Shown one piece after another: positions 56,322 through 57,155 of a stretch of 64,000 bases of DNA. Within the stretch, counting starts at the first letter, position 1. Each line of letters opens with the position of its first letter. Position numbers and translations under genes: made by a program. The stretch lies in assembly GCF_988242995.1 (NCBI RefSeq), contig NZ_OZ547043.1; one strand, given 5' to 3'. The notes below the pieces were generated by a model. The model was not told the DNA's origin and did not search any database. It saw only the letters and a list, made by a program, of their open reading frames with translations.

Positions 56322-56966
56322 GTGTGATTAACGCTCGCCTGATTACTATCAAGCAACAAGACAATTAAGAGAGAACATTATGAATACTGGCAAAAATGCC
56401 CAAACAGGGGCAGGTTTTCGTTCAACCATAAAAAATATGGCTGATGTTATTACTCAGTACAAACCTTACGAACGAATTAATTGAACTAATCGCACTTCCG
56501 TTTTAAATGGAAACGAACAATCGCATAGATTAAACGACAAAATAAATATGCTTTTTACAAACAAAATAAAAGCGACCGCAGAGGGTCGCCAGAGAACATG
56601 TATTAAACTTGAATGCATCGCCAACAATGCCACATTTACGGCTGGTGGGCAATGTGATTTGTGTGGTGGGCACACCTTCAACACATCCGACCACATGAGC
56701 CGGAAAACGGGATATACTCGCCTAATCCCTTATAAAACGGGGCTCGGGATTGCTACCCCGCTGAAGCAAAAGGCGACACATGACGCGCCAGCGTCTTTTT
56801 TGTTGTCTGTACACACGCACACCTTATCAATGGTGGGCTGTATGGGGCTGACTTCGGTCAGGCTGGTTTCCTTTTGCGCCAGTTGTAGCAACTCCGTACA
56901 GTCCACCGCCAGCGAGTTTGCTACCTCCGGCGGTGGTTATATTCCAACGCAAAAGGAGGCTGCCAA

Positions 56967-57155
56967 ATGGCTACTATCCCTGCCCTCGCACATACTCAGA
57001 ACGCCTTTATCTGGCGCTTTATCATCGTTAATCCGAGTGATTCCCGCGTCGTTCACGTCGTGGCGTCAACCGAGCAGGAAGCGCGTAACCGTTGCCCGTC
57101 CGGTTGTGTTGCCGTATTCGCTGCCCGTATTCGTCAGAGGGTAAGTCATGCTTAA
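56967..57155 (+). CDS. Icd-like (host cell division inhibitor family) small protein
   Basis: 62-aa ORF with strong SD (AAAGGAGG) upstream; pattern FIWxF…VxVVASTEQEARxR…VAVFAARI resembles Icd-like proteins of P4-type elements (from memory, not searched). Confidence 0.45.
   Translation: MATIPALAHTQNAFIWRFIIVNPSDSRVVHVVASTEQEARNRCPSGCVAVFAARIRQRVSHA

What the first reader, a model, noticed from the sequence alone, without database searches (positions are those of the whole stretch)
56548..57155. Ambiguous overlapping coding between alpA and the primase: long Cys-containing ORF versus Icd-like ORF
A 198-aa ORF (56548-57144) with a CxxxxC…CxxC cluster near its N-terminus but atypical S/T/C-rich composition overlaps, in a different frame, the 62-aa Icd-like ORF (56967-57155), which has a strong SD. 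Either the long ORF is spurious downstream of its first ~80 residues, or a short zinc-ribbon protein is encoded and the rest is an open frame by chance, or both are real and overlap. There is also a 34-aa SD-preceded ORF at 56380-56484.
Basis: seen in the sequence. Interest (0 to 1): 0.4.

Follow-up and report, generated by a model that had tools for sequence, protein, structure and literature searches.

The report
P4-type RNA immunity locus, not zinc-ribbon gene
The puzzling 198-codon reading frame lies on top of two small regulatory RNA genes (IsrK/SeqA-like and C4/CI-like) that control the real Icd-like gene of a P4/PICI-type satellite island; this is a known phage immunity design that genome annotation mislabels as an "Ash family protein".

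Summary
All three ORFs exist as described. The long ORF's only family match (Pfam Phage_ASH, residues 56-147) covers exactly these RNA genes.

- **RNA control.** The C4 hairpin loop and junction are complementary to two sites in the IsrK leader and two sites downstream. One downstream site covers the Icd-like Shine-Dalgarno. Across about 30 loci these contacts co-vary (16 loop variants).
- **Icd-like ORF (56967-57155).** It is a real gene (NF033153; pN/pS 0.41-0.57) and the homologue of P4 kil.
- **Long ORF.** It is the homologue of P4 eta. It shows no amino-acid constraint (pN/pS 0.9-1.3; variable sites 40/34/36 by codon position), no predicted fold (pLDDT 44) and no conserved Cys cluster. 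Yet its frame stays open: 0 stops in 30 of 31 loci, against 56 stop columns in the other two frames.
- **Likely role.** Ribosome transit across the RNA locus, as reported for P4 eta and Gifsy-1 orf45.
- **Local twist.** A 1-nt deletion puts icd out of frame with the long ORF.

This is a new member of a known kind.

The parts
54339..54412 (+). tRNA-Pro gene, the likely integration site of the island (context)
   Evidence: Rfam tRNA hit at 54.9 bits. Annotated as tRNA-Pro in the identical E. coli LH13-b copy and in two relatives.
54622..55866 (+). Tyrosine integrase (context)
   Evidence: Pfam Phage_integrase, Arm-DNA-bind_3 and Phage_int_M.
56130..56321 (+). alpA-type excisionase/regulator, the counterpart of P4 orf88
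   Evidence: Pfam Phage_AlpA at 2e-06. pN/pS is 0.07 in the close family.
56380..56484 (+). 34-aa ORF of unresolved status. It is in the same frame as the 198-aa ORF and ends at TGA 56482-56484.
   Evidence: No family hit. A 1-nt insertion breaks it in 3 of 10 distinct close relatives. The TGA is conserved; the 'W' in database protein P0002 comes from a gene caller reading TGA as Trp.
56548..57144 (+). Eta-like ('Ash family') long ORF. It is an open frame laid over the promoter, both RNA genes, their targets and, out of frame, most of icd. It was probably kept open for ribosome transit, not for its protein.
   Evidence: Pfam PF10554 matches residues 56-147. P4 eta is the homologue (PMC10111431). 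The frame has 0 stops where the other frames have 56 stop columns. pN/pS is 0.9-1.3 over the RNA parts. Variable sites fall 40/34/36 by codon position. AF2 mean pLDDT is 44.
56713..56718 (+). Putative -10 (TATACT) of the internal constitutive promoter, the PLE equivalent. The -35 is poor in this island.
   Evidence: It aligns with the conserved CTTGC-N17-TATAGT promoter that ends about 7 nt before IsrK in P4 and about 25 loci. The consensus scan did not detect it. Inferred.
56725..56801 (+). IsrK/SeqA-like leader RNA. It has two hairpins, target site a1 (56750-56757, hairpin-2 loop), target site b1 (56766-56773) and an intrinsic terminator (stem 56782-56795 plus U-run to 56801).
   Evidence: Rfam RF01394 at 47 bits, E 6e-08 (cut-off 50). 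Relatives at the same position score 53-75 bits. The terminator scan finds the hairpin. Complementarity was checked.
56826..56913 (+). C4/CI-type antisense immunity RNA. It has a 17-bp closing helix, hairpin 1, hairpin 2 with the b' loop (56867-56878) and the a' junction (56885-56891).
   Evidence: Rfam RF01695 at 76 bits against a cut-off of 45. In-house model R1 gives 93 bits. Covariation: 97.7% of cells paired and 19 of 27 pairs changed on both sides, against 33-48% paired in slid controls.
56918..56925 (+). Downstream target a2 (TTGCTACC), presented in the loop of an alternative hairpin (56903-56910 pairs with 56929-56936)
   Evidence: It is identical to a1 and complementary to a'. The alternative hairpin is 83% paired across 33 sequences, against at most 60% in slid controls.
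56948..56959 (+). Downstream target b2 (CGCAAAAGGAGG), overlapping the Icd-like Shine-Dalgarno (AAGGAGG 56953-56959)
   Evidence: RNAduplex gives 14 bp and -21.3 kcal/mol with the b' loop. It co-varies with the loop in every locus examined.
56967..57155 (+). Icd-like gene, the homologue of P4 kil. It is the first regulated cistron, and its translation is predicted to be blocked by C4.
   Evidence: NF033153 at 62.7 bits against a cut-off of 25. P4 Kil matches the same model. pN/pS is 0.41-0.57 in frame against 1.05-1.5 off-frame. It is intact in all 10 close relatives.
57148..57333 (+). orf61, the next cistron. Its ATG lies 3 nt after the long ORF's stop, in the same frame, and it overlaps the icd stop.
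   Evidence: phrog_3672 at 4e-13. The sequence GGGTAAGTCATGCTTAAG lies at 57139-57156. In L157 the homologous sequence is fused in frame to the Ash ORF.
57363..59782 (+). DUF4222 gene and DUF927 primase/helicase, the replication genes expected to be under this immunity control
   Evidence: Pfam PF13973 and PF06048; phrog_1139 DNA primase at 1e-166.

Best explanation
The interval is the immunity region of a P4/PICI-type satellite island integrated at tRNA-Pro (int, alpA, immunity locus, icd-like, orf61, DUF4222, primase, SSB, ProQ, PerC).

Shown here:
- Two RNA genes lie inside the 198-codon ORF. One is an IsrK/SeqA-like leader RNA ending in an intrinsic terminator (56725-56801). The other is a C4/CI-type stem-loop RNA (56826-56913).
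- The C4 hairpin-2 loop (b') and its 3' junction (a') are complementary to a1/b1 inside the leader and to a2/b2 downstream. Site b2 covers the Shine-Dalgarno of the Icd-like gene.
- All three copies of each contact change together from locus to locus.

Inferred by homology with P4 and P1:
- A constitutive promoter inside the long ORF (-10 at 56713-56718) makes the short leader RNA and, by read-through and processing, the stable C4/CI RNA.
- That RNA pairs with nascent transcripts and blocks icd translation. This allows premature termination (Rho-dependent timm inside kil in P4), which keeps orf61, DUF4222 and the primase silent. That is satellite immunity.

The 198-codon ORF is the homologue of P4 eta. 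Its amino-acid sequence is not under selection and it is not a folded or zinc-binding protein, but the frame is kept free of stops and frameshifts. The most likely reason is that ribosomes coming from upstream (helper-activated) transcripts, or starting at the conserved in-frame AUGs in C4 (56830 and 56842, the orf45 starts of Gifsy-1), must travel through the RNA locus. Their passage would override pairing and termination and couple translation to the next cistron.

The local peculiarity is a 1-nt deletion before the icd ATG. It puts icd out of frame with the eta-like ORF. Instead of P4's in-frame nesting (kil within eta), the two overlap in different frames.
For: RNA genes:
- Rfam C4 scores 76 bits (cut-off 45) and isrK 47 bits, E 6e-08.
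- P4 has the same pair in the same order, as do L002, L003 and L005-7.
- C4 structure covariation: 97.7% of cells paired, 19 of 27 pairs with double changes, slid controls 33-48%.

Targets:
- Three-way co-variation of b'/b1/b2 and a'/a1/a2 is visible in the alignments.
- Cognate b'-b2 duplexes average -18.8 kcal/mol against -11.7 for non-cognate pairs, with 16 distinct loops among 32 loci. The window duplex is -21.3 kcal/mol over the SD.

Icd-like gene:
- NF033153 hit and a coding pN/pS signature.
- P4's 65-aa Kil matches the same model and is in frame with the C4 region.
- P4 timm maps to 8365-8209, inside kil (PMC3177188).

Long ORF equals eta:
- PF10554 hits both the window ORF and P4's old 'cI' ORF over the C4 nucleotides.
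- P4 eta's ATG at 8767 overlaps the alpA-homologue stop.
- PMC10111431 states that eta contains the constitutive promoter, seqA and CI, that Kil is a truncated Eta, and that Eta translation prevents termination.

No protein-level selection:
- pN/pS is 1.1-1.3 in the Ash frame, higher than in the other two frames, and 0.59-1.20 in the close family.
- Variable sites fall 40/34/36 by codon position.
- AF2 gives pLDDT 44.4 and pTM 0.15 with a 72-sequence alignment. There is no PDB relative.

Frame kept open:
- 0 stops in 30 of 31 loci, against 25+31 stop columns in the other frames.
- b1-to-C4 spacer lengths are 54, 57, 63, 96, 102 and 141, all multiples of 3.
- 8 of 9 metagenome loci found by DNA alone have the long frame open.
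- ATGA coupling occurs at the ORF start in P4, L100, L075, L108, L062 and L157.
- In Gifsy-1 the same frame (orf45, two AUGs 12 nt apart, matching M95/M99 here) is translated. Its nucleotide sequence is conserved while its amino-acid sequence varies, and it is needed for coupling to the next gene (PMC4825925).
Against: - In this island the long ORF has no recognisable SD at 56548. It starts 227 nt after the alpA stop rather than overlapping it, and an in-frame TGA separates it from the 34-aa ORF. Its translation here is therefore less assured than in P4.
- The internal promoter has a good -10 but a poor -35, and the consensus scan missed it.
- The IsrK match is 3 bits below Rfam's gathering score.
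- The continuation of the frame across icd is weak evidence. The +1 frame of icd is stop-free in about half of the relatives where it is not used.
- The loci compared are related, so the stop columns are not fully independent events.
- Part of the close-family sample (L156-L165) was retrieved through protein hits, which favours intact frames.
- No transcript, processing, Rho-dependence or ribosome data exist for this island.
Confidence: 0.72

Rival explanations
1. The 198-aa ORF encodes a functional 'Ash family' protein, a Bro-network regulatory domain, as database names imply. The RNA genes merely happen to be embedded in a true protein-coding gene.
For: Pfam PF10554 matches at 3e-11. Five PHROGs labelled transcriptional regulator or repressor match. 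PGAP names it 'ash family protein'. More than 100 database proteins carry the domain, some fused to Rha or Icd-like parts. The frame is conserved open. PMC10111431 and PMC11773190 treat it as a protein.
Against: The domain boundaries coincide with the two RNA genes. pN/pS is at least 1 in this frame and lower in the other two frames. There is no third-position excess among variable sites. The most variable 'residues' are the RNA specificity loops. AF2 finds no fold and there is no PDB relative. The part C-terminal to the domain is sometimes Icd in frame, sometimes the alternative frame of icd, and sometimes a Rha/Ant protein. P1-like D6 runs the same RNA system with this frame closed. PGAP itself flags the window copy as a pseudogene.
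Confidence: 0.07
2. The long ORF is a purely spurious open frame. It is open only because the underlying RNA sequence is conserved and happens to lack stops in one frame. It is never translated in this island.
For: There is no SD before the ATG at 56548. The main promoter lies inside the ORF, so the abundant transcript cannot encode its N-terminus. pN/pS is about 1. PGAP marks it as a pseudogene. The frame is closed in D6, in Stx phage F004 upstream of C4, and in distant C4 loci. The coupling signals seen in P4 (ATGA with alpA) are absent here.
Against: There are 56 stop-bearing columns in the other two frames and none in this one across 30 loci, and they include unstructured and hypervariable stretches. 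Six different spacer lengths are all multiples of 3. Randomly re-placing the observed substitutions would introduce a stop in 77-89% of trials for the two DNA-ascertained relatives L002 and L003. Experimental translation of the homologous frame has been reported for P4 eta (PMC10111431) and Gifsy-1 orf45 (PMC4825925).
Confidence: 0.18
3. A short zinc-ribbon protein is made from the first 60-80 codons (CxxxxC...CxxC), and the rest of the frame is incidental.
For: The four Cys are present in the window with plausible spacing.
Against: None of the nine other distinct close relatives keeps all four Cys (C18Y, C23R/H, C36S, C39Y). There is no family hit for this part and no SD. pN/pS is 0.59, against 0.81 and 0.54 in the other frames, and variable sites fall 11/11/12 by codon position. 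AF2 pLDDT is 44-50 for residues 1-60. The segment is not conserved outside the immediate family.
Confidence: 0.02

Closest known systems
Satellite phage P4 immunity region (PLE - seqA - cI/CI RNA - seqC - kil nested in eta - timm)
   Same: The order is the same: alpA homologue, internal promoter, IsrK/SeqA leader with terminator, C4/CI RNA, target over the SD, Icd-like/Kil, then the next genes up to the primase. Both have a long ORF (eta, PF10554) covering everything. Both have two target sites on each side.
   Different: The icd/kil gene is out of frame with the long ORF here because of a 1-nt deletion. The long ORF starts 227 nt after alpA without ATGA coupling. The spacer between leader and C4 is 24 nt instead of 108 nt, and the extra hairpin is missing. 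The -35 is poor. The primase is the DUF927 type, and the island carries SSB, ProQ and PerC rather than sid/delta/psu.
Phage P1/P7 immI operon (c4 - icd - ant), seen here through P1-like phage D6
   Same: A C4 RNA is made from the same transcript as its target. Its loops pair with a1/b1 and a2/b2, and b2 covers the icd ribosome-binding site. Variation in the loops gives heteroimmunity (my knowledge of Citron and Schuster 1990 and Riedel et al. 1993). D6 has the same layout.
   Different: In D6 the frame through C4 is closed by stops on both sides, so there is no eta-like ORF. The downstream effector is an antirepressor (Ant) rather than replication genes.
Salmonella Gifsy-1 isrK - orf45 - anrP locus (PMC4825925)
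   Same: An IsrK sRNA with a terminator that is partly read through. Next comes an ORF in the C4 region with two in-frame AUGs 12 nt apart (here 56830 and 56842, M95/M99). That ORF has a conserved nucleotide sequence but a variable amino-acid sequence, and its translation serves coupling to the next cistron.
   Different: In Gifsy-1 the ORF is 45 codons and ends in AUGA with anrP. Here the frame runs 104 codons from that AUG, crosses icd out of frame, and ends 3 nt before orf61. Whether IsrK activates in trans here, as in Gifsy-1, was not tested.
Pfam PF10554 Phage_ASH / PGAP 'ash family protein' / PHROG 'transcriptional regulator' families
   Same: The sequence scores above the curated cut-off (44.1 against 26 bits), and the identical E. 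coli copy is annotated this way.
   Different: The 'domain' is the translation of IsrK plus C4. The true P4 epsilon (helper derepression protein) belongs to PF25738, not PF10554. There is no amino-acid constraint and no predicted fold.
Gram-negative PICIs (EcCICFT073, EcCIMP1 types)
   Same: The gene order is int - alpA - 'Ash'/Bro zone - primase - PerC (PMC11773190). C4 and isrK hits in GN-PICIs have been noted before (PMC10111431).
   Different: No capsid-redirection or packaging genes were examined here. The right end of the island was not mapped.

Membership tests
Rfam RF01695 C4 antisense RNA (includes P4 CI) | Covariance-model score at or above the gathering cut-off, over the full-length model | tested here: met
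   76 bits against 45, model positions 1-87 of 87. 93 bits with in-house model R1.
Rfam RF01695 C4 antisense RNA (includes P4 CI) | Closing helix plus two hairpins supported by compensatory changes | tested here: met
   97.7% of cells paired, 19 of 27 pairs changed on both sides, and 0 of 500 shuffles reach the observed values. Slid controls give 33-48%. The alignment was fitted to the model, which favours the structure.
Rfam RF01695 C4 antisense RNA (includes P4 CI) | Loops complementary to target sites upstream (a1, b1) and downstream (a2, b2, over an RBS) on the same transcript | tested here: met
   Exact complements lie at 56750-57, 56766-73, 56918-25 and 56948-59. They co-vary in about 30 loci, and cognate duplexes are about 7 kcal/mol better than non-cognate ones.
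Rfam RF01695 C4 antisense RNA (includes P4 CI) | Stable RNA released by processing (RNase P, PNPase) and acting in trans | not testable with these tools
   This needs northern blots or RNA-seq.
Rfam RF01394 isrK (SeqA-like) | Score at or above the gathering cut-off | tested here: not met
   47.0 bits against 50, E 6e-08, full length 1-77. Orthologous positions in L002, L003, L005 and L006 score 52.9-75.1. It is best read as a slightly diverged member.
Rfam RF01394 isrK (SeqA-like) | 3' intrinsic terminator, and a position immediately downstream of a promoter and upstream of C4 | tested here: met
   The hairpin at 56782-56795 plus a T-run is found by the scan. A conserved -10 lies about 7 nt upstream. 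C4 starts 24 nt downstream.
NCBIfam NF033153 host cell division inhibitor Icd-like (P1 Icd / P4 Kil) | HMM score above the cut-off | tested here: met
   62.7 bits against 25. P4 Kil scores 73.9 bits.
NCBIfam NF033153 host cell division inhibitor Icd-like (P1 Icd / P4 Kil) | Evolves as a protein-coding gene | tested here: met
   pN/pS is 0.41-0.57 in frame against 1.05-1.5 off-frame. It is intact in all relatives.
NCBIfam NF033153 host cell division inhibitor Icd-like (P1 Icd / P4 Kil) | Inhibits cell division or kills on over-expression | not testable with these tools
   This needs an expression experiment.
Pfam PF10554 Phage_ASH as a protein domain | HMM score above the gathering cut-off | tested here: met
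   44.1 bits against 26, residues 56-147.
Pfam PF10554 Phage_ASH as a protein domain | Conservation due to selection on the amino-acid sequence, with a foldable domain | tested here: not met
   pN/pS is 1.1-1.3, the highest of the three frames. Variable sites fall 40/34/36 by codon position. pLDDT is 44.4 and pTM 0.15. The match coincides with the RNA genes.
P4 eta/kil nested-gene arrangement | A long ORF containing the constitutive promoter, seqA, CI and seqC | tested here: met
   The ORF 56548-57144 contains 56713-56959.
P4 eta/kil nested-gene arrangement | kil nested in the same frame as eta | tested here: not met
   The icd ATG lies 137 nt from the in-frame C4 ATG here, against 138 nt in P4 and most loci. 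The two frames differ. The same out-of-frame state occurs in L002, L003, L077, L092 and L157.
P4 eta/kil nested-gene arrangement | eta start translationally coupled to the alpA-homologue stop (ATGA) | tested here: not met
   There is a gap of 226 nt here. ATGA is present in P4, L100, L075, L108 and L062.
P4 eta/kil nested-gene arrangement | Translation of the long ORF prevents termination | not testable with these tools
   The only indirect evidence is the stop-codon deficit and the frame-preserving indels.
Zinc-ribbon protein | Four metal-ligand Cys conserved among homologues | tested here: not met
   Each Cys is replaced in some close relative, and only the window sequence has all four.

The most novel reading that the evidence does not exclude
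The whole 'Ash family' (Pfam PF10554, several PHROG 'transcriptional regulator' families, PGAP 'ash family protein', and many over-long 'Icd-like' proteins) is not a protein family. It is the translation of the IsrK/SeqA and C4/CI RNA genes. The frame is kept open by selection for ribosome passage, which acts as a translated anti-termination and coupling bridge. It can be re-phased relative to icd, as in this island. Annotations and satellite censuses that use PF10554 as a protein marker (for example as P4 'epsilon') are in fact tracking an RNA immunity locus.
Probability: 0.55. Interest if true: 0.45.

Novelty: new member of a known kind. Interest (0 to 1): 0.3.

Why it matters
- **What is regulated.** The analysis identifies the real regulatory content of this island. 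It is an RNA-based immunity switch with a readable specificity code (the a'/b' loops and their four targets). That code predicts which satellites and phages are cross-immune.
- **Annotation.** It explains a recurrent annotation problem. The Icd-like gene is often dropped or over-extended, and the RNA genes are replaced by an 'ash family protein', here flagged as a pseudogene.
- **Comparative evidence.** The long frame behaves as reported for P4 eta and Gifsy-1 orf45. It is constrained to stay open but not to encode any particular protein.
- **Re-phasing.** The bridge can be shifted relative to icd by a single-base indel without being lost.

None of this changes the known mechanism. The value lies in correct annotation and in a clean example of dual RNA/ORF constraint.

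Tried and rejected
- **Zinc-ribbon idea.** Rejected, because the Cys residues are not conserved.
- **34-aa plus 198-aa ORFs as one 254-aa protein with Trp at the TGA.** Database protein P0002 suggested this. The contig DNA carries TGA, so the 'W' comes from a gene caller using a TGA=Trp code. The same applies to the P0007 fusion with orf61.
- **Icd-like as an anchor for relatives.** This gave 29 loci, but only 3 had C4 upstream. Several had C4 downstream, or a second icd.
- **Loose C4 DNA pattern.** It returned mostly chance matches; 29 of 80 were real by the covariance model.
- **Openness across icd as evidence of selection.** Not informative, because the +1 frame of icd is stop-free in about half of the loci where it is unused.
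- **BLASTP of window Icd-like against the P4 ORF.** It gave no alignment. The relationship rests on both matching NF033153.
- **Primary P4 papers.** Forti 1999 and Sabbattini 1995 could not be read. Their content is taken from PMC10111431's summary, from my own memory, and from checks against the P4 sequence.
- **Consensus promoter scan.** It did not find the internal promoter. The promoter is inferred from alignment.
- **pN/pS for orf61 and DUF4222 in the close family.** Uninformative, because there are too few changes.
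Full report
**1. Observation**

The three ORFs are present as described: 56548-57144 (198 aa), 56967-57155 (62 aa, a different frame) and 56380-56484 (34 aa). The long ORF has C18-x4-C23 and C36-x2-C39 and is 25% Ser+Thr+Cys. The 62-aa ORF is preceded by AAGGAGG (56953-56959) and matches NCBIfam phage_ICD_like (62.7 bits, cut-off 25).

The setting is a satellite-type island next to tRNA-Pro. In order it carries:
- an integrase (54622-55866) and alpA (56130-56321);
- the region in question and orf61 (phrog_3672);
- a DUF4222 gene and a DUF927 primase/helicase (57647-59782);
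- SSB, a ProQ/FinO protein and PerC.

An identical copy sits in E. coli LH13-b. There PGAP annotates 56548-56928 as an 'ash family protein' pseudogene and annotates the Icd-like gene normally.

**2.

An Rfam scan finds two RNA families inside the long ORF:
- C4 antisense RNA (RF01695) at 56826-56913: 76 bits, cut-off 45.
- isrK (RF01394) at 56725-56801: 47 bits, cut-off 50, E 6e-08. It ends in a hairpin plus U-run that the terminator scan also finds.

The only protein-family match of the long ORF is Pfam PF10554 Phage_ASH, residues 56-147. That corresponds to nt 56713-56988, the same nucleotides.

Phage P4 shows the same pair of RNA hits, at 8420-8507 and 8615-8692. The historical P4 'cI gene product' CDS (8168-8584) matches PF10554 over the C4 nucleotides and matches the Icd-like model at its C-terminus. 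The genuine P4 epsilon protein belongs to a different family, PF25738.

**3. The RNA system is functional by comparative criteria**

I gathered related loci through the Icd-like protein, a C4 DNA pattern, a covariance model built here, E. coli and phage records and a metagenome DNA pattern.

The C4 fold is strongly supported. 97.7% of cells are paired, and 19 of 27 pairs show changes on both sides. Controls with the partner slid by 1-3 columns give 33-48%.

The hairpin-2 loop differs between loci (16 variants among 32). In each locus it is complementary to a site in the IsrK linker and to a site over the Icd-like Shine-Dalgarno. Examples:
- Window: loop UUUCCUUUUGCG, with GCAAAAGG (56766-56773) and CGCAAAAGGAGG (56948-56959).
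- L002: CCGUUAAC with GTTAACGG at both sites.
- L003: CCUGUAAC with GTTACAGG.
- L005: CCCUUUGAC with GTCAAAGG.
- L006: CUUCAGUGU with ACTGAAG and CACACTGAGGAGG.

A second contact behaves the same way. The junction GUAGCAA (56885-56891) pairs with TTGCTACC, which lies in the IsrK hairpin-2 loop (56750-56757) and again at 56918-56925.

Cognate loop-SD duplexes average -18.8 kcal/mol, against -11.7 for non-cognate pairs. The window duplex is 14 bp and -21.3 kcal/mol. This is the a'/b' with a1b1/a2b2 logic of P1 C4, and the seqB with seqA/seqC logic of P4 CI. That equivalence comes from established knowledge of those systems.

**4. Which ORFs are genes?**

- **Icd-like.** pN/pS is 0.41-0.57 in its own frame and 1.05-1.5 in the other two. 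It is intact in every relative. P4's 65-aa Kil is its homologue.
- **Long ORF.** Over the IsrK and C4 parts, pN/pS is 1.1-1.3, which is higher than in the other two frames. In ten distinct close relatives it is 0.59 (N-terminal part), 0.91, 1.20, 0.49 and 0.83.
- **Variable sites.** The 110 variable sites fall 40/34/36 on codon positions 1/2/3.
- **Cys cluster.** The four Cys occur together only in the window sequence.
- **Structure.** AlphaFold2 with a 72-sequence alignment gives mean pLDDT 44 and pTM 0.15, with no residue above 70. No PDB relative exists.

So the product is not a conserved, folded or zinc-binding protein. The 'Ash domain' is conserved because the RNA genes are conserved.

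**5. The frame is nevertheless protected**

- **Stops.** In 30 of 31 loci ascertained through DNA or the Icd anchor, the homologous frame has no stop between IsrK hairpin 2 and the icd ATG. The exception has a 1-nt insertion in C4 and is open in the shifted frame. The other two frames carry 25 and 31 different stop-bearing columns, 2-5 stops per sequence.
- **Spacer lengths.** The spacer between the b1 site and C4 takes six lengths (54, 57, 63, 96, 102, 141 nt), all multiples of three.
- **Metagenome loci.** Eight of nine loci found by a pure DNA pattern have a long open frame there.
- **Substitution test.** Random re-placement of the substitutions that separate L002 and L003 from the window would create a stop in 77% and 89% of trials.
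- **Where the frame is closed.** The P1-like phage D6, which has the same RNA system, has the frame closed on both sides of C4. More distant C4 loci also lose it.

**6. Interpretation from the literature**

PMC10111431, summarising Forti et al. 1999, describes P4 eta as follows:
- It is a long ORF that contains the constitutive promoter, seqA and CI.
- Kil is a truncated form of Eta.
- Full-length Eta is translated only from the upstream late promoter and is coupled to the alpA homologue.
- Its translation prevents termination.

I verified on the P4 sequence that an ATG at 8767 overlaps the orf88 stop (ATGA). It opens a 199-codon frame through the IsrK and C4 hits to the Kil stop. The P4 Rho-dependent terminator timm (8365-8209; PMC3177188) lies inside kil.

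In Gifsy-1 (PMC4825925) the ORF in the same region (orf45) has two in-frame AUGs 12 nt apart. Here these correspond to 56830 and 56842 (M95 and M99 of an invariant MVGCMG). That ORF is translated. Its nucleotide sequence is conserved but its amino-acid sequence is not, and it is needed for translational coupling to the next gene.

The data here (sections 4 and 5) fit that picture. Selection acts on the ability to be translated, not on the product.

**7. What is particular to this island**

- **Phase.** Most loci, P4 included, have icd/kil in the same frame as the long ORF, with the icd ATG 138 nt after the in-frame C4 ATG. The window, L002 and L003 have 137 nt (GCCAA-ATGG instead of GCCAACATGG). 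So icd is read in another frame and the long ORF crosses it, ending at 57144. That is 3 nt before the orf61 ATG, which is in the long ORF's frame. A second lineage (L077, L092, L157) shows the same out-of-frame state. In L157 the Ash ORF starts with ATGA coupling to the preceding gene and ends overlapping the next one.
- **Weak evidence across icd.** That the frame stays open across icd is not strong evidence here. The same alternative frame is stop-free in about half of the loci that do not use it.
- **Missing P4 features.** The long ORF has no SD. It begins 227 nt after alpA. It is preceded in frame by the 34-aa ORF and a conserved TGA. The internal promoter keeps a -10 (TATACT, 56713-56718) at the conserved position, but its -35 is poor. 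Translation of the full 198 codons in this island is therefore uncertain. Initiation at the C4 AUGs, as in Gifsy-1, is an alternative.

**8. The 34-aa ORF**

It has no family match. A 1-nt insertion breaks it in 3 of 10 close relatives. pN/pS is 0.21, but on very few changes. Its status stays open. It may be a remnant of a longer eta-like frame that once began close to alpA.

**9. Verdict**

The overlap is explained by a known architecture: a P4-type RNA immunity locus with a kil/icd gene and an eta-like translated bridge. The RNA genes, their targets and the Icd-like gene are well supported (about 0.9). The ribosome-transit role of the long frame is supported comparatively and by two experimental precedents but is untested here (about 0.55-0.6).

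It is a new member of a known kind, with a small structural variant (icd re-phased relative to eta). The practical point is annotation: 'ash family protein' and PF10554 mark an RNA locus, not a protein.

Noticed in passing
window 60657-61016 (+), with 61013-61297 and 60019-60444: The island encodes a ProQ/FinO-family RNA chaperone (4.7e-25), directly followed by a PerC-family regulator and preceded by SSB. An RNA chaperone in the same island as an antisense-RNA immunity system may assist C4/IsrK pairing.
   Followed up: no
window 56903-56910 pairing with 56929-56936: The 3' strand of the C4 closing helix (CCACCGCC) can instead pair with GGCGGTGG downstream. That hairpin presents target a2 in its loop and mimics IsrK hairpin 2. 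Across 33 sequences 83% of cells pair, against at most 60% in slid controls, and compensatory changes are visible in L006 and P4. It looks like a mutually exclusive structure in the unprocessed transcript.
   Followed up: partly
L098, L087, L100, L077 and other P4-type loci, between the IsrK terminator and C4 (alignment): The 39-45 nt of extra spacer in P4-type loci form a further hairpin with compensatory changes. Examples are GGCAACGG/CCGTTGTGCC, GGCGGCGG/CCGCTGCGCC and CTGTGGTG/CACCATAG. No Rfam model covers it, and it is absent from the window.
   Followed up: no
L004 (phage P4) 7888-8175 and 8168-8584; PMC8628076: A census of P4-like satellites used PF10554 as the profile for epsilon/'Ash'. 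In the current Pfam, P4 epsilon matches only PF25738, and PF10554 matches the old 'cI' ORF, that is, the CI RNA/eta region. That marker therefore tracked the RNA immunity locus.
   Followed up: partly
L156 384-1148; L164 801-1586; L165 538-1323: Database proteins P0002 (254 aa) and P0007 (261 aa) do not translate from their own contigs under table 11. The gene caller read TGA as Trp and so fused neighbouring ORFs. The same metagenome callers report the 198-aa frame and omit the Icd-like gene.
   Followed up: yes
L154 (phage D6) 1614-1701 and flanks: The P1-like phage D6 has a b' loop (CCCUUUUGCG) and b1/b2 targets (GCAAAAGG...) almost identical to the window's, but a different a' contact. Partial cross-immunity between this island and D6-type phages is conceivable.
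   Followed up: no
L007 2359-2446 and 2836-2924; L024, L025, L027, L028 near 2717-2915: Some satellites carry two successive immunity modules. A C4 copy lies downstream of one Icd-like gene and upstream of a second, shorter Icd-like gene of 55-57 aa. Each module has its own loop and target set.
   Followed up: partly
window 56571-56590: The hairpin AGCGACCGCAGAGGGTCGCC is followed on the minus strand by a T-run, which makes a terminator-like site for leftward transcription. It lies inside the N-terminal part of the long ORF. No minus-strand gene that would need it is evident.
   Followed up: no
window 55885-55930: Between int and alpA lie direct repeats TTGGTTCCTAA x2 merging into a 36-nt palindrome (AATTGGTTCCTAATTGGTACCAATTAGGAGCCAATT). 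These are probably recombinase, AlpA or IHF binding sites. The Rfam int-alpA RNA seen in L008 was not detected here.
   Followed up: no
window 63462-63992 (-): An ORF matches the autotransporter beta-domain (2.9e-23) near the right edge of the window. It is either cargo or the flank of the island. The island's right boundary was not mapped.
   Followed up: no
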